From Stylophora pistillata (lineage: Eukaryota): 64,000 bases of DNA. The notes under the pieces were generated by a model. The model was given only the letters and a program-made list of their open reading frames with translations, ran no database searches and was not told the origin of the DNA. Location: contig NW_019218178.1 of assembly GCF_002571385.2 (NCBI RefSeq), positions 212,146 through 276,145 of the forward strand, written 5' to 3'. The translations under genes and the position numbers were made by a program. Numbering within the stretch: position 1 is the stretch's first letter; the number at the start of each line of letters is the position of its first letter. Below are positions 9,401-60,860 of the stretch, in pieces.

Positions 9401-12400
9401 GCACCACAATCCGGTGAAAATGAAGCCGAAGCAGTTGTAAACCATCGGATGACCTGAGAACTAGCATTGTGATTGGTCGGTTATTCTGCCTCTGCTTGCG
9501 ATCCGACAGTTTAGTCCTCACTAGGTAATAATTGGCGGAGTTATAGCGGAGCTGGCAGCGCGCGCGGAGCGCGGCCCCATATCAATGATAAACGGAATTG
9601 GAATTGTTCATTACGTCATAGGCCCTCCTACAACGCCGGCTACGAGTCATACTCCAATGTCGACTCCGACTTCGTTGCTTATGGAAACCAACTTTTATCC
9701 TAAATTGAAATTTTTATGATCCTTTTTTAAATCCTGTCGCAGATGTTGAATTAAGAAACAGGTTGGTGTAGCTTCATTGCATTTTTATTCATTTAGTTTT
9801 TCGTCTGGTTGATTATTCCCGTCCCTTTTGATTTCGTAGCTTCTCCTCGAGGCAGGCTCAAACATCGACAGTGAAGATCATGATGGCAACACTCCATTGC
9901 ATGTCAAATGTTACGGTGAAAGTGGAGAGCCAACTGACTTAGAATGCATTGAAAAAATGGTGAGTCAAATCTTGATGATAGGAATCATTCAAATTTTGGG
10001 CTGTGGTGATACTTCCAATCAATAATGATGTAGATTTGGATCCATTAGAGACAGGCGTTGCAGTCACCCGCGTCCCTTTCTTTATTCTCAGAAACGTTCA
10101 ACTTGACTGGTTCTTGTTCTTTTAGCAACAACGTGTTAGCTTTTCATCTCGGCGTCTTTATCTGTATATTTTTTTACTCTCTATTTTGTTTAGCTGATGA
10201 AAAAAGCTCCTCTCAATATCAGAAATAATCGAGTAAGTACGAGAAATGATTTTGTTCATTAACTATGTTGCTTTTTTTTCTCTTTTTTTGTCGTAACAAA
10301 CCTTGGATTCCTTCCCCGTCTCCCCCCGTCGTCGTCTCTGTCCCCCATCCCCATTCCCCATTCCCCATTCCCGTTCCCCATTCCCGTTCCCCATTCCCGT
10401 TCCCCATTCCCGTTCCCCATTCCCGTTCCCCATTTCCGTTCCCCATTCCCGTTCCCCATTCCCGTTCCCCGTTCCCGTTCCCCATTCCCGTTCCCCATTG
10501 CCGTTCCCCATCCCCGTTCCCCATTCCCGTTCCCCATTCCCGTTCCCCATTCCCGTTCCCCATTCCCGTTCCCCATTCCCGTTCCCCATTCCCGTTCCCC
10601 ATTCCCGTTCCCCATTCCCGTTCCCCATTCCCGTTCCCCATTCCCGTTCCCCATTCNTTGAAATTTTATGTAATTTATCAGGATTTGATGCCTATTCACT
10701 GCTGTGCGATGCAAGGACGGATAGACGCCATTCAGGCTTTGCTCTTCTTCGACACAGAAGGAATCATTAGGCAAAACTTGGAGATGGAAGGCGAGGTATT
10801 ATGTCATTAAACCGTACAAACCTTACATCATCCATTTACTGATGGATTTCGTAAGATGTAACTGTTTACAAACGGGTCAGTTGTCATGAAATATTCATCT
10901 TCCACGTTTCGGATAGTCATAAACCCTACGACTTCATCAGCTATTTTTTTTAATGCAACTTTCTGCCCTCTGAGTTAATTTGGGTGTATAAAAACTATTT
11001 TCTTCTTTAGCTACTGCTTTGCCAAATCCTTGGGTTCGATCAGCTCTCATGAATTAGGTTCACGGACTCCGAAATTTCTGGATAGGAGTTGATTTTAAAA
11101 CTTTATGTATAAAACTATTTTGTTCCTTTTTCATTTCAGAAAACTCCACCCAGTCTTCTTCATTTGTCTGTGGCTAATGACTTTCTAGATTGTGCAAAAT
11201 GGTGAGTTGCCAGAAATTGTTCCTCTCTGCTGATACCTTTGTACTGATGTTGGCTCCTTGCTGTTGACCTTCACCATCTAATGAACAAATTACGCAGACC
11301 ATTTTTCAAGCGCGCGGTTGAACATTATCTCGTCTTTTTTACCTGTAATACATTTCCCACAGCTTTTCACCAGTTATAAAATGTCCTATACTTTTCGTGT
11401 TGTGCACATTTCCTCCCCTTTTTTCATCTGTTACACATTTTCCCGCGCTTCTCACGATTTGTATGTTCTTTTCACCTGTTACACGTTTCCCCATGCTATT
11501 CACAAGGTGCACGTTCTCACTTTTCACCTTTCACAAACTTGAACTCTCCCGCGCGCGTTTTTTCACCAGTTGCACGTTTTCCACGTTGTCTTGTGTTGCA
11601 AAATTACAATTGCCTATTCTTCACACCAGTTGCATGAACTTCAGTCTGAGTACCTGCTAGGCCTGAAAGCTGATTTTGGTTTCTTGTCGCAAATAGGTCA
11701 CAGAACACTTTTGTGTCTTTCTTTTAGGCTAGCAGAAAACAACTTCGAATTCAAGGACAAAGAAACAGATTTACTCGTGCATAAGATTCTACTTGAAGAA
11801 GTTCCTTGGTAAGACTTTTTTGATACAGCATCCAATGTAAAATGTTTCACCTTGACCCACGAACGAGTTCTCTGTGGACCAGTGGAAGCGTTGTATCTTT
11901 CACAACTGTTGTCTGATATTGTAACACAACGTACGTGCGTGCCGTGACTGGTGGTTGCGGTTGAAATCTCCACCAGGACTCAGAGTTATGATTTGATTTC
12001 TAAGCTTAAGTGTCGTGTGACAATTGATTTAAAAAAAAAACTGTGTTTCACGAGCTAGCAAAAATTTTCACGAACTCTAAGGCTTCGTGTGGGTTGGTTA
12101 TGTTGATTTTTTTTTTTTTTATTTTTTTTTATTTTTTTTATGTAGTGGTAATCGTGTGGCAACCGTCAGGTTTCTCCTCGAAAATGGTGCTTCCGTGAAT
12201 CCTACATACCCCGGAGGAAATACGTAAGCCTTTGATTGTTGTGAGTATTCTTTGTTAATCTCACTTTTAAATGGATTAGATTAAAATTCTGTGCGCTATC
12301 GTCCTACAGAGCTCTTCACCTGACTGCTGGCCTGTCGAACGCTTCAGATCTGTTAGAGCTGTTATTGTCATTTGATGCCGATGTTGATGCCCTGAGCGAT

Positions 12401-14325
12401 GACTTGTGTAGTCCGCTTTTTTACGCCGCGCAGGCCAATAATCTGTACGCGGCAAGTCTTCTGCTAAATCAAGGTTAGTGATGAAATTGCAGTTATATTT
12501 TAAATTAATGAGTGTGTTGATGAGCGAGCGAGCGAGCGAACGAACGAGCTAGTAACGAACTATTGGACGTACGGATGAAAGAACAGAGGGACGAAGGCAT
12601 GTACAAATTCGTGAACGGAAAGACAAACAGACCGACGTACGCACGGATGAACGAACGAACGCACGAATGAGTGGACAGATGAATGGACGGACGAACAGAC
12701 GAACGTACGAACGGACGAAGACGATCGGACGAACGGACGAACGTACGAACGGACGAAGACGATCGGACGAACTGACGGACGGATCAACGAACGAATGGAT
12801 GAGCTGACAGATGAACTTAGGGAATGTTGGAGGAGGATTAAAGAAAGAGGAAAGAAGGAATAAACGGTCTTGGATAGAACGGGGAAGTAGTAAAAGAACG
12901 GTTGATTAGGGACCTTAAGCAGTCAGGACGGCAACGCCAAGGAAGACTCCGATTAAAAAATGAATTTCTACTCTTAGTTAGAATTTCGAACATGGCTGCA
13001 GGAGCTTACTGTCTCATTAGGCGCCACAGCTCGACTTCAGCATGACGTATAAAAGTGGCGTTGAGTTCCAAATGGAAATTAAGATAATTTGCCGTCGCGG
13101 TTTCGGTTCGCAGACGACGCAAATTTCGGCGATTTCACGTTGTTGTTTTGCAAAGGACGGCTAACAAATGTACAAAATTTCAAAACGCACGTGCTGAGCT
13201 ATTGTTCTGCCAATTAGATCTCTTGTTTTTCCACGTCCTCGTTGCCGTCGCCGTCGTGGTTGCTTAAGGTCCCTAATAAAGGGATGGAGGGCGGGAAGGA
13301 CGCGGACAGATCGATGAGGTCACGAAATCTAGTCGTGTGAATAGTCTAGTCTCCAGTACTCTTGTAAAATAAGATAAAAAGTAAAAAAGTAACTTTCAAA
13401 AGTAAGGCTGATCGATGGTGCTTTGGTAAATTTTTATAGGAGCCAATGTGAGGACGAGAAATTTACAAGGTAAGGTGTTGCTGTAGATAACACCCACATG
13501 AACAGGCCGCAATGTTAATTCACTAGTTTATTCTTTATATTTTCCTTTCTTCCATTTTTTCGATTGTTTTATTATATCTTTCATCACTTTCTGGTCAAAA
13601 CGCGATTTCTTAAATTTGTTTGTGGACGTTCCACGTTTCCTTATCATTACCGTTGTAATTACCACGTCTTATCGACACCGGTATCATTACATTTATCGTT
13701 ACTGGTGCTGTTCCAGAGTCGCTAACTGTGATTTTAGTGAATTTCAATATCTGTCTCCGTTGAACGCTTGATGTTTTGGTCTCCCCGCAGGGCTGACTGC
13801 ATTTGATTTTATCTCTGACTTCGAAGAGTGGATCGAATGTTGTTATTTCAGTGAAGAAATAAAGGCGAGATTAAAAGGTTTGTCAGCAAGAATACACTAT
13901 TTTATACCAGTTGGCGACTCCCCAAACGTCAAATTCCTAAAATTCTCAGTCCATATCTGGCCAGTGGTACATTGTGTGATAACTTCCTTCGACGAAAAAC
14001 TATGCCAAAAATTAGACATTTCGCAACAAAGCGCAGCCTGAAGAGTGTTTCTGCAGTTTGTTCGTGCAACTCTTTCTGCCCCATTGCGCACATCTGAAAG
14101 GCCTATCCATCAAGCTAGCCCCTAAAATTCCTTTGTTACCTTTCAGCCTACAGCCTCAAGCACGCGCGGGATCTGGTGCGAGCTATAACCAAGAAAGTCA
14201 GGAACCAACCAGGACTTTCTGCGTCGCAGCAGCCGGTGGGTCGATCTCAGCCTACCTTGCGGGCAATCAGTAGTGGTCACGTCCCTCTGATGCTTCCACC
14301 AATCCGGAAAGGAGCGACAAGTTGA
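418..14325 (+). CDS. Multi-exon gene, 5' end outside window: CH-domain-like region(s), helical linker and multiple ankyrin repeats (uncharacterised)
   Basis: Exons with GT-AG boundaries and continuous frame: 418-528, 1146-1256, 1984-2012, 3234-3366, 3840-3865, 4445-4513, 5366-5447, 5745-5834, 6063-6189, 6445-6524, 6658-6716, [N gap, phase break], 7059-7154, 7721-7831, 8008-8107, 8446-8566, 9073-9136, 9231-9320, 9840-9959, 10194-10232, 10682-10795, 11140-11201, 11728-11808, 12146-12223, 12310-12473, 13440-13469, 13791-13877, 14147-14325 (TGA). Ankyrin motifs: GNTALHMAC, NTPFFLA, GSTLLHTAS, GATPLHRA, GNTPLHV, LMPIHCCA, GNTALHLTA, CSPLFYAA. CH-like: SPEYCILDMVNAHL...SLSDLTDSRVLCALVNSFVP...INLALRTADQMF...FDSQDLVEGDIMSVCCYF. 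Confidence 0.88.
783..945. mobile_element. Palindromic tRNA-derived short element (inverted arms containing B-box-like sequence)
   Basis: GTAGTAGTGGAAATAAGGCCTGAAAAAATTCAGG...GGATTTGAACCCATG on the left pairs with ...CATGAGCTCAAATCC...CCTGAATTTTTTTCAGGCCTTATTTCCACTGCTAC on the right, around a central (CACTG)n. Confidence 0.6.
1339..1767. mobile_element. MITE, Tc1/mariner-pogo-like
   Basis: Terminal inverted repeats GTCAAACCTCCATTATCCAGA / TCCGGATAATTGAGGTTTGAC with TA-type flanks and internal GATTATCC(G/A)G subrepeats. Confidence 0.65.
2022..2549. mobile_element. TTAA-flanked non-autonomous DNA element (Kolobok/piggyBac-type)
   Basis: TTAA-AGTGCCTATGA at the left end and TCATAGGGACT-TTAA at the right end. 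It lies 9 bp inside the intron after exon 1984-2012. Confidence 0.6.
3925..4320. repeat. Degenerate (CAGA)n microsatellite
   Basis: Dense ACAG/GACA tetramers. It explains the spurious ORFs 3893..4186 and 3975..4211. Confidence 0.9.
5905..5983. repeat. 8-bp tandem repeat (GGCCGAGT)n
   Basis: About 10 units in the intron between exons 5745-5834 and 6063-6189. Confidence 0.9.
6839..6908. repeat. 15-bp tandem repeat (ACGCTCGTGCCTCAT)n abutting an assembly gap
   Basis: About 5 units immediately after the N run at 6829-6838. Confidence 0.9.
7209..7517 (+). mobile_element. 5'-truncated L2/CR1-clade LINE 3' end
   Basis: Translates as AAPFPWNKLPRSAREATNLESFKILLKTLLF, matching the RT C-terminal 'AAPxLWNxLP...FKxxLKTxLF' motif. 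An AT-rich 3' UTR and a (TTATTG/TTA)n tail follow. Confidence 0.75.
8270..8412 (+). mobile_element. Copy of an abundant ~200-bp TTAA-type MITE family
   Basis: Core CCATACTGTTCTCTATACATTTCCTAAGGTGCTGACAAGGAGAATTTGTT..ACAATCAAGAGC recurs, variably decayed, at ~18575-18770 (reverse), ~20866-20968, ~25840-26020, ~27072-27262, ~27660-27820 and ~50020-50180. Related elements at ~24860-25078 and ~48560-48740. Confidence 0.75.
10340..10656. repeat. 13-bp minisatellite (CCCATTCCCGTTC)n
   Basis: More than 20 near-perfect units ending at a single N (10657), 25 bp before the exon at 10682. It explains five spurious ORFs. Confidence 0.95.
11300..11640. repeat. Degenerate ~28-bp tandem repeat (TTTTCCCGCGCTTTTCACCAGTTACACG-like)
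   Basis: Recurring TTCACCAGTT/TTCACCTGTT and TTTTCCC(A/G)C words at roughly 28-bp period. Confidence 0.7.
12520..12815. repeat. Degenerate GAGC/GAAC/GGAC tetranucleotide repeat
   Basis: Runs of GAGC, GAAC and GGAC are directly visible. Confidence 0.85.
12908..13274. mobile_element. MITE with terminal inverted repeats (PIF/Harbinger-like assignment tentative)
   Basis: AGGGACCTTAAGCA (12908-12921) and TGCTTAAGGTCCCT (13261-13274), with subterminal GACGGCAACG / CGTTGCCGTC. Confidence 0.8.
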
Positions 14326-14664
14326 GGCGCGCAATTATCAGCTGTGATCACCTGGAGCAGGCTGCAGTGATCGCTTCTTGAATCTTAGAAACACCAGAAA
14401 AGTCTAAATCACTAATTGATATATTTGTTAAAATTTGTTAAATGAGCTCAGGAAGTTCAGCAAGTAAGCTTTCTAATTGGAGAATGCATTAGTGTTATTT
14501 AGCCTAACCCTTTTAGTGGACCGAAAAAAAACAATCAACAATCATCTCCCCTACGCTTAAGACTTTATCCTTTTTTTTTTTACTTTGAGCTCTTATTGGC
14601 ACCTTTTGATTTTTTCACAAATTTTGATTACGATTTGTTTAGGTTTCCTTGTAGAATATAAAGA

Positions 14665-14812
14665 TCATTCCACGGAAAGTGCGCACAAACGACTTTTATT
14701 CACGGGTTGCGATGCATCGAAAAAAAGAAACCAAACGAGTGAGCGAGTGGGTTCTTTGATGCATTGCAACGAGTGAATAAAAATCGCTCAAGCACTTTCT
14801 ACGGTATGATGT
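14665..14812. mobile_element. Palindromic MITE; a second copy at ~20275-20402
   Basis: Arms GAAAGTG..TTTTATTCAC..GTTGCGATGCATC / GATGCATTGCAACGAGTGAATAAAA..CACTTTC. The same words occur in UBAC2 intron 6. Confidence 0.65.
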
Positions 14813-14872
14813 TTTTAATTTTTCTTACTGCCCAACTCATTTTAAAGATTGGAAGTGAACGACTGTGAAAAT

Positions 14873-15033
14873 ATTCATTCGCTCCGACGAAGGGCTAACG
14901 CTCGAAACGTCAGCTTTTGTAATCGTTACGGTGGCCAATTTACCATTTCAACTTTGTTGATATATCCAAATTATTTCGTTACTCCCACCGACGCAGCCCC
15001 AAACAGTTTCTTTCGAAACTATCAGCCTTTATT
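14873..15033 (+). mobile_element. 161-bp Penelope-like (pLTR/retrozyme-type) insertion with a 13-bp target-site duplication
   Basis: Flanked by the direct repeat CGACTGTGAAAAT (14860-14872 and 15034-15046). Near-identical to the reverse copy at ~22095-22250 and contains a hammerhead motif. Confidence 0.8.
14881..14914 (+). ncRNA. Minimal type I hammerhead ribozyme motif (U4C variant)
   Basis: GCT-CCGACGA-A-GGGC-TAAC-GCTC-GAAA-CG-TC-AGC. Stem I is GCT/AGC, the core is CUGANGA-like, stem II is GGGC/GCTC, and stem III is reduced to the palindrome ACGT before the UC cleavage site. Confidence 0.7.
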
Positions 15034-15384
15034 CGACTGTGAAAATGCATCGCTCGTCCAATCAGAGATGAAAATATTTATATAACTAAACAATCTTCGC
15101 TTGTAAAGAAATAGTTTTGTAATGCTTCTATGATATTTATAATAAAGAAAGCCTCTCATTTTAATAGTGTGCACTTTCTCTCTAATCCCCCACTCTCTTT
15201 TCTAGTTCATACTTACATCGTAATGGCATAAAGACCAAAGGACAGAAAAATAACGATAGAAACAGATCAATTTTTTTCTATGCATGTTCATATTATTAAT
15301 ACAATGACATGAACTCCTTTTGTGTGTTTTATTCCCTTATGTGGCAGTAATGTGAATCATACTCATGGTGCTATGCCAATGTCA

Positions 15385-19200: not shown

Positions 19201-22200
19201 CACCACACAAATGGAGGTGTTGTGTGGATGGTTTTGCCCACCTGGTTTGACCATCTGGAGGAAAGTTTATCCTATAAAGAAGTTCAGTTCAAAACGTTTT
19301 GCCCTCCTTATGAAAATGTTAATGAAACCTGTGCTTTACACTACGTGTAATTGTGGACCTTGTAGTGGTTTGGACTATGCAAGGAAAACAGAAGAATTCC
19401 CAATTTATTCCTAATCTTTCCAGATGGTCCTGAATATCCAAGATTTTATGCTTGGGGCAAGATGTTAAGTTTATTCATTAGTTGCCAAAGTTATTGATAA
19501 TAGTTTTAAAGGACAATCTTTAAATTACTTGTCAGGGCCCAACACTAACTTTTCAACGTACTAGCCAAGTGGTTAGTGACAACTTAGATGTGACAACAAT
19601 TTCAGTTTGTTTACTAGCCATACTGGCTAGTGGAAATCAAAAACCATTCTCCAAAACTGAATTTCAACTAGTCCATGGGTAGTTGGCTACCATTAGTGTT
19701 GAACCCAGCTTGTATAAATAGTCATTCATTTTCTTCTTAATAGATGCTGTTAGCTAGTAGGGAATCACTTTTAGCTGGTGTTTGTGGGATGGTAAGTTCA
19801 GAATTAAACCTTTTTATTTCATACATACTGAGATGTACACTATATATATCTTATTAACCAAGCACGAGGGCCGTACTGGGAGAATATCGGCCCGAGGTCT
19901 TGACAGTACAGACCTCGCTGCACTCGATCTGTACAAAAAAGACCAGGGACCGATGTTCTTCCAGTACGGTCCCGAGCAAGCTTGGTTAATAAAAGATTTA
20001 TTATACGACTGAAGTTCAAAGGGACACAAGTGCGGATCATTCAGGACCATTCGGGACAGTGCCCGGTCCAATACTGAGAGAATATTGACAGGCAATAGAG
20101 CATTTTGATTGGTTGTTTTTAGTTATTGGCCCTCTGAATGCCCGTGTCGTGTAATAAAAAGTGTTATTATTCATGTCTCTGATTGGATGAAGGATGTATT
20201 TCCACAGTTGTCTGCTTCCAATCTTTGAAATGTTTTGGTCAGTAAGAAAAAAATCTCTGTATGCATGAAATTAAAACATTCCATGGAAAGAGTTTGAATG
20301 ATTTTTATGAACTTGCAGCAATGCATCAGACAACTCTCTTGTTTGTTTTTCTGATGCATTGCAACTCATGAATAAAAATCATTCCTGCACACTTTCCATG
20401 GAGAAATCTTTATAACTCCCTTGAGTGGCCTAGACAGAATTCCTCCATACAACATCAATACAATATCTAGCAGGCAAGTGATGTAAATAAAGAAAAATAT
20501 CAGGGAGAGGATTATTATTTTTTATGGTTATAACCACTGATTTCATGATACAAGTCTTGAAAAGGTTATAACATTGAACTTGTTCGCGCAAGAAATGCTA
20601 TCATTTGTTCTCCCTATTTTACAGGTAGCAGGATTTATTTATAGGTTCAACTTATTTCAAGTTCAACAGTGGCTGAACTTGCCAGAATCTCTGACGTCAG
20701 CTGTGTCCAGAGCAATCGGTGGATTGTTTTCAACAGAGAGTCTCCCTACTCAGCCCTATGCAATGGGTGCGACGCTGGAAATACAGAGAGCTCAGCAAGT
20801 GGAACATTACGAACAGCAAGCATTGAGGGCTAGAATGGGACATCTCAGAAACAGGGTAAATACATCATTTCCTATATTCTCATGACTATGATGTGTGATT
20901 CAGGGTGTGATATTGTTACAGTAAGGAGAAATTACATGTTAGTCACTCTTAGGGGCCAAAAGATTTAAGTTTAATTAAGAAACCAATCAAGAAATTTTTT
21001 TGTAACATCTATATTTATTATTTAATATATAATAAATGTTTGATGTCATCTAGGGTCCTCCAAGAGTAGGCCAAGGATATGCAGATGTTCTTGTGCCCCC
21101 TGGGGGAGGAGGCTGGCTTTGGGGTGGGGCAGGTGGCCAACAGCCACCACCCCCACCTCCAATGAATAACTGGCATGACAGAGATGCTGATGCAGACAAT
21201 GCTAACGTACCTCAGCAACCAACTGTGGAAGTTTCCGAACAACAGGTAGGTAGAAATCGTTTCAATTGGTTATGTGAAGGGGAACCACTCAAGAGATATG
21301 AGTCAGGTTGTGGCAAATGTAGTAAGGTTTGGCATGATGCTTCACAAAGATAAGACTATGAACAGTTCCTCTTTCCAAGCTCAGTCTGGTAGGGTGGCAG
21401 AAGTGAACAGTGTAGAGTAGACATCTATATTTATACCGGATAGCCCCTTCAGTGTGGTAAACACTGGTATCAACGGGGGTCCTGTTACCCACCCATCCCA
21501 GGGGAGGACATCCATCACACAGTAATCTCGTGCATGGGAATTTAACGTCTCCTGCTCCTAACCCTGCAGGAGAGAGGACCTCCATTTATTCGTCCCTATC
21601 CGAGAAGACTAGAATATCTAACCATTTCTTGATGTTATAGAAAGGTAGCATATTCTTCTCAATTATTTTATGACCCTGAGGGTTGGTCTGGCCGGGGCTC
21701 GAACCCTTAACCTCCCACACAACAGTCCAGTGCTCTATCCATTGAGCTAACTGGTAGGTGGTATGTAGTAAGGTACTCATTTTGATGCAAATTGTAGCAT
21801 TAAAAGGTGCTGATCACTTTTAACACATGTAACAGACTCACATTCAGAGTAATAATAATAATTTAATATTTATATTGTGCAAATTAACATCTGAATAATA
21901 TGATCAAATGCGCATCGCAACACTGTCTGGGGGACTTTAGTTAGACTGCATCAGCAGTTTACAAACAATTGAAGGAAACTTATTTCAAGATGCCCCCTCC
22001 CCCCAATTCCCAGTAAACAGGCCAGACCACATCACAGTAATCTTGTGAGTGGGTTCTTTAACGTCCCCTGCCTAACCAAATTAACTAATAAATAAATAAA
22101 GGCTGATAGTTTCTAAAGAAACTGTTTGGGGCTGCGTCGGTGGGGGTAACGAAATAATTTGAATATATCAACAAAGTTGAAATGGTAAATTGGCCACCGT

Positions 22201-23244
22201 TATGATTATAAAAGCTGACGTTTCGAGCGTTAGCCCTTCGTCGGAGCGAATAGAGGAATTGTGGGTTGTGTGTGCTTTTAAAGACAGAAAATGGAGCTTC
22301 ATTATTGGTGGAGCTATTACTTAGCTCCATTTACTGCCTTCAAAAGCACACATAACCCACAATTCCTCTATTTGCTCCGACGAAGGGTTAACGCTCAAAA
22401 TGTCAGCTTTTATAATCGTAATGGTGGCCAATTTACCATTTCAACTTTGTTGATATATTCAAATTATTTAACTAATAGATGCAGAGTAACAGTAGATTGG
22501 TGGAAGTTTACAACACAAGGACCTACTATACTCTCATGGTTTGATCATTACCAGCCTGTTCACAGACTATCTTATTTTCCTCTTCCAATAATGTATCAAG
22601 TGTGGGAAAATTCAAAGAATGCAGATCTAAGTGGGTAGAGAGTAGTTACAACTCTGCACCATAAGCCTATAAAAAATGAAAGATTAATGTGATGAAAGTA
22701 GTGCTGGAGGGTGGTGCAATGCTATGCTTATCCTCTTAAGGAAAGAAAAGAAAAAGTGGGTTTGGACAGGCTAGAGCAGTAATTAAGCGATAGAACACCT
22801 TTTCCAGGCTCCATAACATGATCAAGGCTCGTGGGATATTGAGATTACAGGTAGCCTTCAGCTCATGATTATAAGCTTTCTGAAAGTTCCCTTAACATCA
22901 CAAGTGACACTGTCATGTTATAAGGCCCAGAAAAATGCGTTCTATTGCTTTTATGACATAATCAGTTACAGACAGGCTCTATAATCTGAAAAATACATCT
23001 GCTTGGAAACTGAACTGACCAAGCAGATGACACATACTATGTTCATTTTGTCATTTAGAAGCTGAAACTGTTTTCACACTTAAATCATTGAATGACTGTT
23101 TAAGCTCAATCAATCTTTCATTAAATGTGGCAGGTTCAGACTTTGGTAGAGATGGGTTTCTCCAGAATGGCAGTCCTCCATGCTCTGACAGCAAGTAACA
23201 ATGACATCACCGTGGCCACAAATATTTTATTGTCGCAGTCTTAG
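16262..23244 (+). CDS. UBAC2: Ubiquitin-associated domain-containing protein 2 (rhomboid-like pseudoprotease with C-terminal UBA), ~362 aa
   Basis: Exons 16262-16292, 16421-16551, 17544-17663, 18128-18231, 18811-18931, 19744-19791, 20625-20855, 21054-21245, 23134-23244 total 1089 nt in one open frame. Recognisable UBAC2 motifs: MFPGASSTGFYHAPFSK, LYSFRIFERRFGSKRYASY, MGATLEIQRAQQVE and UBA EVSEQQVQTLVEMGFSRMAVLHALTASNNDITVATNILL. Confidence 0.95.
18232..18810 (+). other. Candidate U12-type (minor spliceosome) GT-AG intron, UBAC2 intron 4
   Basis: Donor GTATCTTTT (consensus RTATCCTTT). TTTTCCTTAC lies ~21 nt before the AG (consensus TTCCTTRAY). There is no polypyrimidine tract next to the AG. 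Confidence 0.6.
18977..19192 (+). mobile_element. 5'-truncated tRNA-derived SINE body with (AAATT)n tail
   Basis: Shares CTAGTCTTCTCGGATA(A/G)GGACGAATAAA...CTCCTGCAGGGTTAGG...GAGATTACTGTGTG with the reverse copy at 21478-21755 and ends in TAATAAATTAAATTAAATTAAATTAA. Confidence 0.75.
19533..19709. mobile_element. Small MITE (hAT-like CAGGG terminus)
   Basis: CAGGGCCCAACACTAA ... TTAGTGTTGAACCC with internal ACTAGCCA/TGGCTAG repeats. Confidence 0.5.
19848..20003. mobile_element. Palindromic MITE
   Basis: TTATTAACCAAGC..GGGCCGTACTGGGAGAATATCGG pairs with CCGATGTTCTTCCAGTACGGTCCC..GCTTGGTTAATAA. Confidence 0.7.
21478..21755 (-). mobile_element. tRNA-derived SINE with Pol III A and B boxes
   Basis: The minus strand begins ACCAGTTAGCTCAATGGATAGAGCACTGGACTGTTGTGTGGGAGGTTAAGGGTTCGAGCCCCGGCC (A box TAGCTCAATGG, B box GGTTCGAGCCC) and continues into the body shared with 18977-19192. 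Confidence 0.8.
22091..22469. mobile_element. Head-to-head inverted pair of Penelope-like pLTR units in UBAC2 intron 8
   Basis: Arms 22152-22298 and 22323-22469 are inverted copies (147 bp each, 24-bp spacer). TTAACTAATA occurs on both sides (22081-22090, 22468-22477). The left flank is SINE-like (GGGTTCTTTAACGTCCCCTG). Confidence 0.75.
22214..22247 (-). ncRNA. Minimal hammerhead ribozyme motif, identical to 14881-14914
   Basis: The reverse complement reads GCTCCGACGAAGGGCTAACGCTCGAAACGTCAGC. The partner on + at 22374-22407 has GAAA changed to AAAA and is likely dead. Confidence 0.7.
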
Positions 23245-33070: not shown

Positions 33071-33224
33071 TTTAATTGTGTTTCTCTAAAAATAGAAACG
33101 TTAAAGGATACTAGACCATATTAACTTCGTCATACTTCCGCTTTAAAAAGAAAGCGGAAGTATGACGAAGTTGATATGGTCTAGTATCCTTTAACGTTTC
33201 CATTTTTAGAGAGACACAATTAAA
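33071..33224. repeat. Near-perfect 154-bp hairpin (74-bp arms, 6-nt loop)
   Basis: 33071-33144 is the reverse complement of 33151-33224 with 3 mismatches. The loop is AAAAAG. Confidence 0.9.
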
Positions 33225-35093: not shown

Positions 35094-36631
35094 NNNNNNN
35101 NNNNNNNNNNNNNNNNNNNNNNNNNNNNNNNNNNNNNNNNNNNNNNNNNNNNNNNNNNNNNNNNNNNNNNNNNNNNNNNNNNNNNNNNNNNNNNNNNNNN
35201 NNNNNNNNNNNNNNNNNNNNNNNNNNNNNNNNNNNNNNNNNNNNNNNNNNNNNNNNNNNNNNNNNNNNNNNNNNNNNNNNNNNNNNNNNNNNNNNNNNNN
35301 NNNNNNNNNNNNNNNNNNNNNNNNNNNNNNNNNNNNNNNNNNNNNNNNNNNNNNNNNNNNNNNNNNNNNNNNNNNNNNNNNNNNNNNNNNNNNNNNNNNN
35401 NNNNNNNNNNNNNNNNNNNNNNNNNNNNNNNNNNNNNNNNNNNNNNNNNNNNNNNNNNNNNNNNNNNNNNNNNNNNNNNNNNNNNNNNNNNNNNNNNNNN
35501 NNNNNNNNNNNNNNNNNNNNNNNNNNNNNNNNNNNNNNNNNNNNNNNNNNNNNNNNNNNNNNNNNNNNNNNNNNNNNNNNNNNNNNNNNNNNNNNNNNNN
35601 NNNNNNNNNNNNNNNNNNNNNNNNNNNNNNNNNNNNNNNNNNNNNNNNNNNNNNNNNNNNNNNNNNNNNNNNNNNNNNNNNNNNNNNNNNNNNNNNNNNN
35701 NNNNNNNNNNNNNNNNNNNNNNNNNNNNNNNNNNNNNNNNNNNNNNNNNNNNNNNNNNNNNNNNNNNNNNNNNNNNNNNNNNNNNNNNNNNNNNNNNNNN
35801 NNNNNNNNNNNNNNNNNNNNNNNNNNNNNNNNNNNNNNNNNNNNNNNNNNNNNNNNNNNNNNNNNNNNNNNNNNNNNNNNNNNNNNNNNNNNNNNNNNNN
35901 NNNNNNNNNNNNNNNNNNNNNNNNNNNNNNNNNNNNNNNNNNNNNNNNNNNNNNNNNNNNNNNNNNNNNNNNNNNNNNNNNNNNNNNNNNNNNNNNNNNN
36001 NNNNNNNNNNNNNNNNNNNNNNNNNNNNNNNNNNNNNNNNNNNNNTTATTGAGTAGTTGTTTGAAATAATGAGCTAGCCTAAAAAATAAGACAAACAGCG
36101 GTGATGAACATTGTATTCCAATGCATTTTATACAGAACTTGACGTTTCGTATGCTAGTCAACATACATTTTCAAAAGTGAACCGTTACAATTGTTGAAAA
36201 CTATATGTAGTGAATGTAAGAGTTCTGGAACCTAGACTGAAGACCACTGGTCACAACATTAAATGGGATCATTTTGACATTTTAGCGTCGGGAAAAACTG
36301 ACTTCCATTGTAAAATTAAAGAGACTTTGTTCATTCAAGAGCTAAAGCCTTCTCTTAATGTCAATGTTAGTAGTGAGAAGTTGTTGTTATTTTAGCCAGT
36401 ACTTCTCATTAGTCTAGACATATAGACCACTTTCATAAATGGCTGCCGGATTAACATTCTTTTGTTTAAATTTAAATTAGCCCTTCTGGCCTCGCTTGAG
36501 ATGATGTATTCTTTTGAATTTTGTCTAGAGAACGAGGCCAGAAGGGCTAATTTAAATTTAAACAAAAGAATGTTAATCCGGCAGCCATTTATGAAAGTGG
36601 TCTATATGTCTAGACTAATGAGAAGTACTGG

Positions 36632-46202: not shown

Positions 46203-46355
46203 AAGGGGGTAGGTCTCGGAATAAACTTTTGTGCTGCGTCGGTGGAGGTATTACAAGATAATCTGGTTTTATCGACTGAGTTGTCAATGTAAACTGGCCA
46301 ACATAAAGAGTATCTATAGCTGATGTTTCGAGCGTTAGCTCCTCGCCAAGGCGAA
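46203..46355 (-). mobile_element. Decayed copy of the hammerhead-bearing Penelope-like repeat; further decayed copies at ~48915-49057(+), ~50563-50602(+) and ~60203-60340(-)
   Basis: Shares TGCGTCGGTGG, GATAATxTGG, GTAAAxTGGCCA and AGCTGAxGTTTCGAGCGTTAGC with 22120-22250. Confidence 0.7.
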
Positions 46356-47458
46356 GGATTCTACTTTGATCTATACCAAACATCGGATCAGCTTACCTGG
46401 ATTAGGCAAAAAAACAAAAACCATGACCCAAAGAAAATACAGAAAGCACTAATTAATCTAACTTCCCAGTCTAAATTCTGAAAAGCCAACCGACTGTTAA
46501 GCACAGTAAAAGAATGCTTGTAATTTAGTCTGTGGAGTTTAAAAGTTCATTATCTTTCTATGCAAAAAAGGGTTACGCGTTAAGCAAAACAAATTGTAGT
46601 TCGGTGCGGTTAAGGTCGATTTGACGAGTAAATCTTTACTACGCCAGTCGCCCTCTAAAATTAAAGTCAGGGATGGAAAAACGTACCCAAATTTCCGGCA
46701 TAATTCAATGATATTTACTGTAGAAATGCACCTCGCATGACAACTGGGTTCTTCTTTTCACGGTTGCGCAAACGTTTGGCAATTCAGAAAATGAATACAT
46801 GTGGTCCATTTCCATTAATGCTTGGAGGTTTTGTTCATGAAATTTTTCTTTTTCTTAAGGGCAGACACAGTAACAAAACAAATTAGAAAAAAATGGAGGA
46901 AGTTTATTTTTCAGCCGCGGGACAATCGGAAAAAGAAAGTCTTTTGCGACTGACACCGCACTGAAACCAAATTTCAAGAAAATGCTGAAATTCTCTTAAG
47001 ATTGAAAGAATCTCCCATCATTTCTTTCAGTCTTGTCACATTTTACAAATTATCGAAAAAAAACCCGTCGAATAATTTGAAAACATCAAAAAAAAAAAAA
47101 TACCAGGTTTAAAATTGTATGGTCTAATTGATAACTTTTAAGCGACAAGACCGAAAATTTCCTTCTCTGACACGTGCAGGTTAAAATTCACACTGCATAA
47201 CTACACAAGTTGAAAACATCGGATAAAAGGATTTACGATTTCTTAACTTTCTCTCATTACCACTGTTTAGTCTAATTTCAGTCTCTTTTCAAAGAGAAAG
47301 GCCCTCCGATTGTCCTCATTTGACAATAAGTCCTTAATTTACATAGAATTTTCACGTGCGCAAGTTTGATGCGTGCATACACGCCCCTATAGAGTGACAT
47401 ATATTAAATCCCATTCGGAACCCATCAGAATTAGTTGAACTTTTGTAAAGCCGGAAGG

Positions 47459-49546
47459 ATGGCACAGAATTTGTCGTTCTCTATCGCCAATATTCTTCGC
47501 TCGGACTTCCCTCCACCTTCTCAGATCAGACAAGTACCGAGGTGTCTTTACTTAGAACGTCTAGCTGAAAGCAGAAATTTGCCATACGTCGCTCTGAGAT
47601 GCCAACTAGATCGACGAGCTAGCTTCTGTAATGAAACAGAATTTTTTGCCAGAAATTATTACAGCGCGCACACATTTCCTGTAATATCAGAGAAGGATGC
47701 CAAGATTCAAAACTCTGGTTATATCAGAGAACAACAAAGAAAGAAAGGTAGGTGAAGTTTGATTTCTTGAACACGCTTTGAACTGTTCAGGTTAAGTTCA
47801 TTTCCCCTCACTCTCTTCTGCAGTTAGCTCCTAAGGGCAGTTATGTTAAAAACGTGGTTAGCTTTTCACACATCGACACACACAACAAAACACTTGGAAT
47901 CTCTGACTCTGAGGCGTGTAAGGTGTCGGGGTTAAAAATATTTGTTTGCGTATTTTCTAAGCGCAATTAGTTCAGTTTAAACCAGCTTTGGATTTCTCGC
48001 CTTTTGTTTTTAAAGCAAGCATTGAAATTTGGCGCTAAGCGGACATACAATGTTTATGTATGCATTTTAACTCGTATGTTCAGTCCTGCGCTAGGACAGT
48101 TTTCCGCCAGCAACTTGTCATTTAACGCCTAAAGAGTGAACTGAAGTGTGAAAAGCTTGTATTCTGCGCGGTGGTAAAATTTGTTCTCAAACGTGTTTGA
48201 TGCTTTCGATTTCAATTGCCCGCGTTTTACTTTCCTTATGTACGCCATCGGCGTTAATTGAGGGCACTTTTGTCAAAATCCCGCTTCCACGAATTCTCCC
48301 CCAGGACATCGACGTAATTTATTGCATGAAACGAAGCGATGGTGGTCAAGGCATCCCAAGCGACCAAGACTCATAAAAAGTTCATTATTCTGATGTTTTT
48401 TTTTTTTTATAACCAACCTACATTTCTAGGTACCCTTTCACGTCAGCACACTTAAAGGATTCTTTCCCTGTGGGGAGAGGCCCCTGTTATTGTATTTTTC
48501 AGCGGGAAATAGCCGTACGATTGATAAGACACATAAGTCAGCTTTTTAACGCTTATCGCTTTAACTCTAAAGATCTGATTGATACTTCTACCCCTTAGCT
48601 GTTATGCATTTCCTTGTAGATTATTTAATGTGTTAGATAAAGATAACAACTCTTACCTCATAACTGGGTTTAAGTACTCTTATTACCTGTCTACAGGATA
48701 ATGTATGGGTATTGTAGGACTAAGTTACGACTTCTGGAAGTTCTAGAAGAGTAGGTTACCTCGGGTGTTCTCGTCACAATTTCAAAACATTTTCTTGGAA
48801 ACAGGAAATGAATAAGGAAGAATTGATCAGTAGAAATACGTTGTCTCGATGTAAAACTAAAATCTCCAGACTGATTTTAACAAAGCAGATATTTGTAGCG
48901 CTGGTCCTTCGTTAGAGCGTCGTTCGCTTTTGATACGTCAGCTTTAGACACTCTCTAACAGTGGCTAATTTACAACAAACTTAGGTGGTAAAGCCAAATT
49001 ATCTCATAAAAACCCCCGCCAACGCAGCACTACAGTTTGTTTCGAAACTTACCACCTCCTTTCATTTGATTTTAACAAAGAGAGACGAAGTAGATAAAAA
49101 TAGAGACATCGTTGACAAAACCAGTCTAAAGAGGAGCTGGTTTCAAACTAAAGGTGATGTAAAGAAAATAATCTTTTTTTACCATTTGTTTCATAGATAT
49201 ATTGGCAGCTAACGGAAATAAAAAGATAGAGGAAGGTAAACGGAGCAGTGAACTGACTGGCACTGCTGCAAAAAGTGCAGTGAAAAAGAAACGGAATCGA
49301 AGCCATTTCACTCAGGTGCAGCTTAAGTATTTGGAAGACGTATTTACCCGCCAGCAGTACCTTACACGCGACGAACGCGCTCTGCTGGCGACTGCTTTAA
49401 ACATGACGGAGCTGCAGATAAGAAACTGGTTTCAGAACAGGAGATATCAGTTGAGGCACCGAGGATTAAACAGAGCCAGACAGGTTCCAGTCAAAGTACT
49501 GGTCAGCAGTAGTACAGGGCAGGATTCTGATGATCGTAGCACGTGA
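47459..49546 (+). CDS. Divergent NK3/NK2-like homeobox protein, tandem copy 1 (~212 aa)
   Basis: Exon 1 47459-47747 (MAQNLSFSIANIL, eh1/TN motif; phase-1 donor G/gtaggt). Exon 2 49197-49546, with an in-frame alternative acceptor at 49209. Homeodomain 49286-49465 KKRNRSHFTQVQLKYLEDVFTRQQYLTRDERALLATALNMTELQIRNWFQNRRYQLRHRG, followed by RQVPVKVLV (NK2-SD/NK3-like). Confidence 0.92.
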
Positions 49547-60044: not shown

Positions 60045-60860
60045 GTTCTAACTTTAACGTTAAAACTTTAGCGTGTGACCATGCATCTCATTGGAGGCTG
60101 CTGAGAATTGCTTCATGTGCCACTGTTTTTCATGCAGCACAAGGCAGTTCGAACTTTTTAGTGGGTAAAATCCTCGTTATGTGACCATCCCAATGAAATA
60201 GAAGGGGTAAGTTTCTAAACAAACTGTGGTACTGCGTCGGTGGGGATGTTACAAGATAATTTGGTTGTATCAGTAAATTTGCCACAGTAGAGAGTTTTCT
60301 AGGAATCTAAAGCCAAAGTTTGGAGCTTTAGTCGTCCGTTAGAGTACTTTCATTAGGACGGTTTCAGGATCATTCTCTGCAAAGTAGCTTTACTTGCTCA
60401 GTCCTAAGACCTTGCTATGCAGCTATTTGATTGAAAGTTTCCCAGCAGTTACGTTAGTTGGTACTCGATATGCTGCTGTAAATTGCAGTTCTTATAGTGT
60501 TCAGTTTATAAATAAAACCTTGTAACTATTCAACGAAAGCTTGTAAAATAAAACCCTGTAACTATTCAACGAAAGCGTCTCAGCAGTTATGTTAGATAAC
60601 TCGATCTATATTGTGCTGTAAATCGTGGTTCTTTCTGTACGGTGTATACGTATGGGTCAAGATTACCCTCTACTGAGCTGTAGGCTTGACTGCGTAGTAT
60701 TGTTTATTATACTGTTGGCACTAGCTTTCAGTCTGAGGCTAAGCTGATCTTACTATGGGGCCATCCAAATGAAATTATTTGAGTGACGGTATTTGTATGT
60801 GGTTCTGTTCATCATGCTTTACAGTATCGTTCTGGGCTCTAGATCTGTGAATGAAGGAAA
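60045..60860. repeat. Highly decayed tandem (satellite-like) repeat interrupted by a Penelope-like copy, with a local 31-bp duplication
   Basis: Recurring GTGTGACCAT..AATGAAA and GTTCTAACTTT-like words. AAATAAAACC(T/C)TGTAACTATTCAACGAAAGC occurs at 60510-60540 and 60546-60576. Confidence 0.5.

What the first reader, a model, noticed from the sequence alone, without database searches (positions are those of the whole stretch)
14860..15046. Hammerhead-carrying 161-bp insertion with a clean 13-bp TSD, in sense just 3' of the ankyrin gene
Seen: a minimal type I hammerhead motif with a CCGACGA core and ACGT palindromic stem III, flanked by CGACTGTGAAAAT repeats, ~550 bp after the stop codon and upstream of an AATAAA at 15141. 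Known: Penelope-like elements and retrozymes carry such minimal hammerheads, which cleave mainly as dimers through the palindromic stem III. Inference: this is a recent, non-coding, mobilised unit. If the 3' UTR runs to 15141, the mRNA contains a potential self-cleavage site that transcripts of other genomic copies could activate in trans.
Basis: partly seen in the sequence, partly recalled or inferred. Interest (0 to 1): 0.7.

Follow-up and report, generated by a model that had tools for sequence, protein, structure and literature searches.

The report
Penelope retroelement end in coral mRNA
The insert is real: it is the short end piece of a very common coral jumping gene (a Penelope-like element) sitting in an ankyrin gene's 3' untranslated tail, and its hammerhead ribozyme motif, already published apart from one core letter, probably does not cut that message to any useful degree.

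Summary
Observation confirmed. The 161-bp insert has a true 13-bp TSD; four paralogous empty sites of the host repeat hold the 13-mer once. It is not a separate non-coding unit. It is bases +1 to +157 of the pseudo-LTR of a young Neptune-type Penelope-like retroelement (RT + GIY-YIG; 4,923 exact hits to one 31-mer), plus a 4-nt stutter. The same hammerhead, with the canonical CUGA core, is in Cervera & de la Pena 2014 (A. digitifera, Neptune). Here the U4C core dominates (3,396 vs 485 exact hits).

In 96 copies picked without regard to the ribozyme, 50 start at -6 to +20, just below a TATA-like box at -31, and 1 starts at the cut site. The copies were therefore likely made from uncut RNA. Sense reads show the ankyrin mRNA running past AATAAA 14776 and across the insert's 3' junction (4 and 7 reads), ending by about 15150. 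Trans-cleavage is possible but unsupported: the core is non-canonical, predicted to be sequestered, and the dimer helix is 4 bp. The scan noted similar Penelope hammerheads in 3' UTRs of other genomes. Ordinary insertion; the amplified U4C family merits one bench test.

The parts
14860..14872 (+). 5' copy of the 13-bp target-site duplication (original target sequence of the host repeat)
   Evidence: single copy in 4 paralogous empty sites
14873..14876 (+). 4-nt stutter repeating the first four letters of the element; not from the target and not from the element's natural upstream sequence
   Evidence: sequence
14877..15033 (+). pLTR bases +1 to +157 of a Neptune-type Penelope-like element: from the inferred transcription start to the distal reverse-transcription start (tail end)
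   Evidence: 98.7% (155/157) to the ORF-linked pLTR in L112; end statistics; TATA-like box
14881..14914 (+). minimal type I hammerhead motif with U4C core (C at 14885); predicted cut after 14911; cleavage untested
   Evidence: same motif with U4 in PMC4209133 Suppl. Fig. S3
14975..15033 (+). optional tail of about 57-60 nt between the two preferred 3' ends (about +98 and +157); 5' boundary approximate
   Evidence: 40 of 96 copies end at +85 to +110 and 56 of 96 at +148 to +160
15034..15046 (+). 3' copy of the target-site duplication; its first C also matches the element's next base (1-nt microhomology)
14653..15068 (.). older host repeat with an internal palindrome (MITE-like; 69-78% identity to its main paralogous matches), split by the insertion; contains AATAAA 14776
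14147..15151 (+). last exon of the ankyrin-repeat gene: stop 14323-14325, 3' UTR covered by sense reads to about 15150; AATAAA 15141 is the likely poly(A) signal

Best explanation
The insert is a solo pseudo-LTR fragment (+1 to +157) of a young, thousands-strong Neptune-type Penelope-like retroelement, likely pasted by that element's own endonuclease and reverse transcriptase into an older repeat in the ankyrin gene's 3' UTR, where its U4C hammerhead probably stays silent. Shown: identity to ORF-linked pLTRs, true TSD, two fixed 3' ends, a pile of 5' ends at +1 to +20 with a TATA-like box at -31, and read-through of the host mRNA. Inferred steps: (1) a pLTR promoter starts RNA at about +1, so the hammerhead lies at the very 5' end of the element's transcript; (2) the GIY-YIG domain makes staggered nicks 13 bp apart; (3) reverse transcription starts inside the RNA at +157 (or about +98) and runs to the RNA's 5' end, giving a 157-nt cDNA, with a 4-nt stutter added at the join; (4) because the cDNA spans the cut site, the template RNA was uncut; (5) in the host mRNA the motif is a passenger, since a loopless stem III needs a second copy, the core is U4C and an alternative hairpin is predicted to bury it.
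For: Long copies run upstream into an uninterrupted RT + GIY-YIG frame ending 93 bp before +1 (Pfam RVT_1 E 7e-6 and GIY-YIG E 2e-4). The window unit matches such a pLTR at 155/157. Three loci (L232, L237, L238) show a 5' pLTR continuing past +157 toward the ORF start at +229 to +236. In 96 copies anchored at +59 to +89: 50 begin at -6 to +20, 0 at -61 to -7, 1 at +36; 2.2 would be expected at -6 to +20 from the upstream truncation rate. T[AT]TAAA stands at exactly -31 in 53 of 56 U4C and 6 of 9 U4 long copies. 20 of 30 closest loci have a head-to-head inverted arm and 17 of 30 a 9-16-bp duplication near the junction. Internal RT starts at two sites, AT-rich nicking and use of unprocessed RNA are reported in vitro for a lizard PLE (PMC11167929). 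U4C lowers cleavage in vitro in a viroid (PMC3088659). Predicted probability of stem I in host context is 0.07-0.22; ACGU duplex -1.7 kcal/mol.
Against: No intact full-length copy was seen: the three 5'-pLTR loci have broken frames and most ORF loci have assembly gaps. Both Pfam scores are just under the curated cut-offs (26.3 vs 29.6; 21.9 vs 22.6). The transcription start is inferred, not mapped, and 5' ends spread over about 26 nt. Reads past the insert were fewer than a rough end-effect estimate (11 observed vs 15.6-21.4 expected, P 0.15-0.01), which leaves room for partial loss. Steady-state reads cannot see mRNA already cut and degraded. Folding programs do not model hammerhead tertiary structure or protein help, and the lizard PLE ribozyme cleaves only with its protein. 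The 96 copies come from the first 100 listed places, all on three contigs, of 4,923.
Confidence: 0.8

Rival explanations
1. The insert acts as a conditional cleavage site: transcripts of other copies, or the element's protein, complete the hammerhead in trans and cut the ankyrin mRNA after 14911, removing its poly(A) tail and lowering expression.
For: The mRNA includes the insert in sense. Family RNA is abundant: depth about 3,100 in the sense direction against 14-37 for the host UTR. All other core letters and the palindrome are intact. A viroid U4C variant stays active enough in vivo. Reads past the insert are somewhat low.
Against: Minimal hammerheads cleave poorly even as cis dimers or trimers (PMC4209133). 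The intermolecular helix is 4 bp, -1.7 kcal/mol. Antisense family RNA is as abundant as sense (3,632 and 3,095). No read-end pile inside the element among the 6 of 10 places listed. At most 3 of 96 copies start near the cut site (upper 95% bound 7.9%). No significant sign of constraint on the motif among subfamilies: 0 of 23 non-CpG sites with shared variants against 13 of 346 elsewhere.
Confidence: 0.1
2. The unit is a monomer of an independent non-coding retrozyme that moves as a 158-nt circle or tandem repeat; its end and start share letters that could be a circle junction.
For: Fixed ends, near-identical copies (41 near-full-length matches at 98-100%), and the end and start overlap in a few letters. 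Coral retrozymes exist (PMC7229834). One DNA contig joint links +157 back to the hammerhead start through 11 other letters (table 5c).
Against: The exact end-to-start junction has 0 matches in the genome; head-to-tail pairs at 100-130 nt spacing have 1 match against 3,396 cores. The letters after +157 are the natural run-on into the ORF. Described coral retrozymes are 220-245-nt tandems with canonical hammerheads.
Confidence: 0.03
3. Same element, but the 5' end at +1 is not a transcription start: long transcripts are truncated there because the hammerhead hairpin stalls the RT or promotes fold-back, or the head-to-head structures arise from an antisense template.
For: Many 5' ends near +1 are fold-back junctions with short stutters. 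A stable hairpin spans +5 to +38. An antisense-template model for head-to-head PLE ends has been proposed (PMC3846280).
Against: An RT coming from +157 should stall at the hairpin's 3' foot (about +38), where few ends lie; ends pile at and just inside +1 and vanish from -7 to -61. A TATA-like box sits at exactly -31.
Confidence: 0.15

Closest known systems
Minimal type I hammerhead in the pLTR of an Acropora digitifera Neptune PLE (Cervera & de la Pena 2014, PMC4209133, Suppl. Fig. S3 and Table S1)
   Same: Stems I and II, loop, unpaired A after position 9, loopless palindromic stem III and the upstream flank of the long copies match the listed sequence; Table S1 gives 5' and 3' hammerheads about 3 kb apart.
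   Different: Core position 4 is C, not U, in the dominant young family here (3,396 vs 485 exact 31-mers). This copy is a solo fragment inside a host 3' UTR.
EN+ Penelope-like elements: Poseidon PAc of Anolis (PMC11167929), general structure in PMC8557442, Adineta Penelope (PMC3846280)
   Same: 5' truncation, partial tandem pLTRs, inverted 5' arms, optional tail set by two RT start sites, TSDs, solo pLTRs, TATA/Inr-like motifs in the pLTR, uncut RNA as template.
   Different: Tail is about 57-60 nt rather than 30-40. The ORF starts at about +230, downstream of both the hammerhead and the tail, whereas in PAc it starts inside the hammerhead. About half of the sampled copies are start-to-tail fragments with no ORF sequence.
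Animal non-LTR retrozymes (PMC7229834; bioRxiv 10.64898/2026.07.22.740005)
   Same: Short, hammerhead-bearing, PLE-related, dispersed monomers; exon-overlapping copies reported mostly in 3' UTRs.
   Different: No tandem arrays, minimal rather than canonical hammerhead, directly continuous with a protein-coding PLE.

Membership tests
EN+ Penelope-like element (Neptune type) | Single ORF with RT followed by C-terminal GIY-YIG, linked to this pLTR | tested here: met
   473-aa open stretch in L082 ending 93 bp before +1; RVT_1 E 7e-6 and GIY-YIG E 2e-4, both slightly under curated cut-offs. The window copy itself has no ORF sequence.
EN+ Penelope-like element (Neptune type) | CX2-5CxxC linker between RT and endonuclease (PMC8557442) | tested here: met
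   C-x4-C-x2-C read by eye in the translation; shared with Nematis, so not decisive alone
EN+ Penelope-like element (Neptune type) | Placement in the Neptune clade by RT phylogeny | not tested
   Label taken from Table S1 of PMC4209133 for the matching hammerhead and from the linker
EN+ Penelope-like element (Neptune type) | pLTR on both sides of the ORF (partial tandem) | tested here: met
   3 distinct places among 25 loci (L232, L237 = L242, L238) have the pLTR 5' of the ORF; all three frames are broken
EN+ Penelope-like element (Neptune type) | Inverted 5' arms, optional tail, TSD | tested here: met
   20 of 30 inverted arms, 17 of 30 duplications of 9-16 bp; two 3' ends in 96 of 96
Minimal type I hammerhead (min-HHR) | CUGANGA core | tested here: not met
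   U4C at 14885; family-wide, C in 41 of 44 sampled copies covering the site after end-trimming. Some descriptors allow C or U here (PMC13481778).
Minimal type I hammerhead (min-HHR) | GAAA, nucleotide between 9 and 10.1, G10.1-C11.1, palindromic 15.2-16.2, cleavable NUH triplet | tested here: met
   features from PMC4209133
Minimal type I hammerhead (min-HHR) | Self-cleavage as a dimer | not testable with these tools
   Indirect signs are negative: 1 of 96 copies starts at the cut site; no listed read-end pile
Non-LTR retrozyme | Head-to-tail tandem units, each with a hammerhead | tested here: not met
   0 exact junctions; 1 short-spaced pair
Non-LTR retrozyme | Abundant monomeric circular RNA | tested here: inconclusive
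   Family reads are about equal on both strands and no back-joint in RNA was among those listed, but 67 joints were not shown

The most novel reading that the evidence does not exclude
A coral Penelope lineage swapped its hammerhead core to U4C and then expanded to thousands of copies, about half of them exact promoter-to-RT-start cDNAs of uncut RNA. U4C weakens the six-base hairpin that locks the canonical core (-12.3 to -9.8 kcal/mol), so it may be a tuned, protein-gated ribozyme rather than a dead one. Sense copies in 3' UTRs would then make host mRNAs, such as this ankyrin message, cleavable and retro-copyable whenever the element's protein is made.
Probability: 0.1. Interest if true: 0.65.

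Novelty: new member of a known kind. Interest (0 to 1): 0.25.

Why it matters
As an insertion it is ordinary: one of thousands. Two side results are useful to PLE specialists. First, the copies' ends give genomic support, in a second clade, for the in vitro result that PLEs reverse-transcribe uncut RNA from internal start sites, and they point to a pLTR promoter with a TATA-like box at -31. Second, a family with a non-consensus U4C core outnumbers the canonical one 7 to 1, which offers a natural matched pair for the open question of whether PLE hammerheads need to cleave at all. If host mRNAs were cut in trans, that would be a new route of transposon control over host transcripts, but the evidence here does not show it.

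Tried and rejected
Circle or tandem-monomer origin: suggested by overlapping end and start, rejected. Empty allele at this locus: empty-type reads in X24 (4 reads, opposite strand) and an X5 contig match the paralogous locus L106 exactly on both sides, so they are not an empty allele; none was seen in the four runs. The DNA-type contigs of X15 and X16 overlap the element by under 31 letters and do not count as bridging. U4C as decay of this one copy: rejected. Retrocopy of the ankyrin last exon carried by the element: the unique part (query 1-487) matches only its own locus among 57 matches. Constraint test on the motif: not significant. Rfam: no hammerhead hit. Overall folding of the insert is no better than shuffles (z -1.13). 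Intact full-length master: not found among 20 + 25 ORF loci. Lunse et al. 2017 (PMC5785218) and Ambros & Flores 1998 (PMC147498) were not held, and the supplement of PMC7229834 was unreadable; any of these may already describe the U4C form. Look-up of earlier findings by sequence returned nothing.

Full report
OBSERVATION. The 13-mer at 14860-14872 recurs exactly at 15034-15046, with 161 bp between. The insert lies in an older repeat with an internal palindrome (about 14653-15068). Four other copies of that repeat show left flank, one 13-mer and right flank without an insert, which proves a target-site duplication. The hammerhead reads: stem I 14881-83/14912-14, core 14884-90 with C instead of U at position 4, one unpaired A, stem II 14892-95/14900-03, GAA, the loopless ACGT stem III, and C17 at 14911. 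The host gene is spliced on the + strand, has ankyrin repeats and stops at 14323-14325. The host looks like a stony coral: the motif matches an Acropora entry and one holding run is labelled coral metagenome.

WHAT IT IS. The insert has at least 41 near-full-length matches at 98-100% (40 of 509 candidates scored). Exact pattern counts are 4,923 for an internal 31-mer, 3,396 for the U4C hammerhead, 485 for the same with U4, and 1,732 for copies that continue upstream. Those longer copies run into an open frame with RT, a CX4CxxC linker and GIY-YIG, ending 93 bp before the letter I call +1 (window 14877) (both Pfam scores just under cut-off). The window unit matches an ORF-linked pLTR at 155 of 157 bases. 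Of 8 places where the ORF stop and the following core were read, 6 read CCGACGA directly, one more shows it in the printed stretch, and one is decayed. Three loci show the pLTR 5' of the ORF, with the start at +229 to +236; all three frames are broken. Cervera & de la Pena list this hammerhead, with U4, for an A. digitifera Neptune element. U4C copies are younger than U4 copies: median pairwise identity 0.96 (103 copies) against 0.84 (15 copies) over +40 to +90.

HOW IT GOT THERE. I sampled copies by a 31-mer at +59 to +89, so the ribozyme did not bias the choice: 96 of the first 100 listed places (3 not fetched, 1 lost in de-duplication), all on contigs C1-C3. 3' ends fall at two places: 40 at +85 to +110 and 56 at +148 to +160. 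5' ends: 35 lie upstream of -61 (10 of them at the reference edge), none at -61 to -7, 50 at -6 to +20, 1 at +21, 5 at +33 to +40 (three bounded by assembly gaps, one at +36, one at +40) and 5 beyond. The upstream truncation rate predicts 2.2 ends at -6 to +20. A TATA-like hexamer stands at exactly -31 in 53 of 56 U4C and 6 of 9 U4 long copies. I infer that +1 is the RNA's 5' end, that RT starts internally at about +98 or +157, and that the window copy is a complete +157-to-+1 cDNA. This agrees with the in vitro PAc work: nicking of AT-rich DNA, two internal RT starts that define the tail, unprocessed RNA as the main template, and a ribozyme that cleaves only with protein. Since such cDNAs span the cut site and at most 3 of 96 copies start near it (upper 95% bound 7.9%), the templates were mostly uncut. 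Inverted head-to-head arms (20 of 30) and 9-16-bp duplications (17 of 30) in the closest copies are standard PLE features.

IS IT IN THE mRNA. About 2% of two raw RNA runs was read. Sense depth was 19 and 33 at 14693, 14 and 36 at 14769, and 14 and 26 at 14816, so most transcripts pass AATAAA 14776; a poly(A) contig reaches 14867. On a stretch holding only 22 letters of the element, 4 (X23) and 7 (X24) sense reads cross from the element into unique flank; coverage stops by 15151, fitting AATAAA 15141. The two samples carry different flank variants, so the insert sits on more than one haplotype. The empty-type reads match paralog L106, not this locus. A rough end-effect estimate expects 15.6-21.4 crossing reads against 11 seen (P 0.15-0.01): no large loss, partial loss not excluded.

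WOULD IT CUT. Against: minimal hammerheads show no monomer activity and low dimer activity; U4C considerably lowers activity in vitro in a viroid, though enough remains for infectivity; the lowest-energy fold pairs the core with the cleavage strand; stem I probability in host context is 0.07-0.22; the dimer helix is -1.7 kcal/mol; family RNA is about equal on both strands, and no read-end pile in the element was among 6 of 10 listed places. For: partner RNA is roughly 100-fold more abundant than the host UTR, U4C weakens the locking hairpin from -12.3 to -9.8 kcal/mol, and protein help is documented. The subfamily test gave no significant constraint (0 of 23 vs 13 of 346 sites). I put meaningful cleavage of this mRNA at about 10%.

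COMPARISON AND NOVELTY. It works like, and on all tested structural features is, a solo pLTR fragment of an EN+ PLE; the Neptune label rests on the linker and the published match, not on a tree. It fails the strict CUGANGA feature of minimal hammerheads and the tandem feature of retrozymes. Searches for U4C in print gave the viroid case and a descriptor that allows C or U, nothing on a coral PLE family; but Lunse 2017 and Ambros 1998 were not held and the supplement listing 16 A. millepora families was unreadable, so the variant may be known. Earlier scan notes describe like cases in other genomes and two-ended PLE-type insertions in this genome; they are unchecked leads.

PAPERS SEEN. PMC4209133: parts 1-2 of 4 and supplement passages. 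PMC11167929: parts 1-2 of 4. bioRxiv 10.64898/2026.07.22.740005: part 1 of 5 and passages. PMC3088659: section 8 and passages. Passages only: PMC7229834, PMC6765202, PMC8557442, PMC2377424, PMC3846280, PMC13481778. TATA position near -30 and CpG decay are recalled textbook knowledge, not from a call.

VERDICT. Real, correctly described, ordinary in kind. Interest 0.25.

Noticed in passing
window 22095-22469: A second young member of the same family in head-to-head form: one arm ends at the distal 3' end, the other at the proximal one, both with upstream pLTR sequence, flanked by a shared 10-bp word.
   Followed up: partly
window 46213-46358, 48882-49049, 60210-60281: Older, 72-77% identical relics of related pLTRs.
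   Followed up: no
window 14884-14886 and family copies such as L105, L167: U4C creates a CpG, so ordinary C-to-T decay would restore the canonical core; a few young-type copies do carry T there.
   Followed up: partly
G000 C39:878439-878592 (L245): The only short head-to-tail pair found: two start-to-tail units in one insertion joined by stuttered 5'-end letters, a natural cis-dimer substrate.
   Followed up: partly
run X15, joint 15033 to 14881: A deep contig links the tail end back to the hammerhead start through 11 other letters, hinting at a related tandem subfamily in that sample (table 5c).
   Followed up: no
window 20198-20414: Another copy (69%) of the host repeat, on the opposite strand.
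   Followed up: no
window 12890-13280, 33104-33191, 36434-36593: A high-copy intronic repeat and two long hairpins that give sub-threshold Rfam miRNA hits, probably MITE-like.
   Followed up: no
window 10330-10660 and 12520-12800: Simple-sequence arrays in introns of the ankyrin gene.
   Followed up: no
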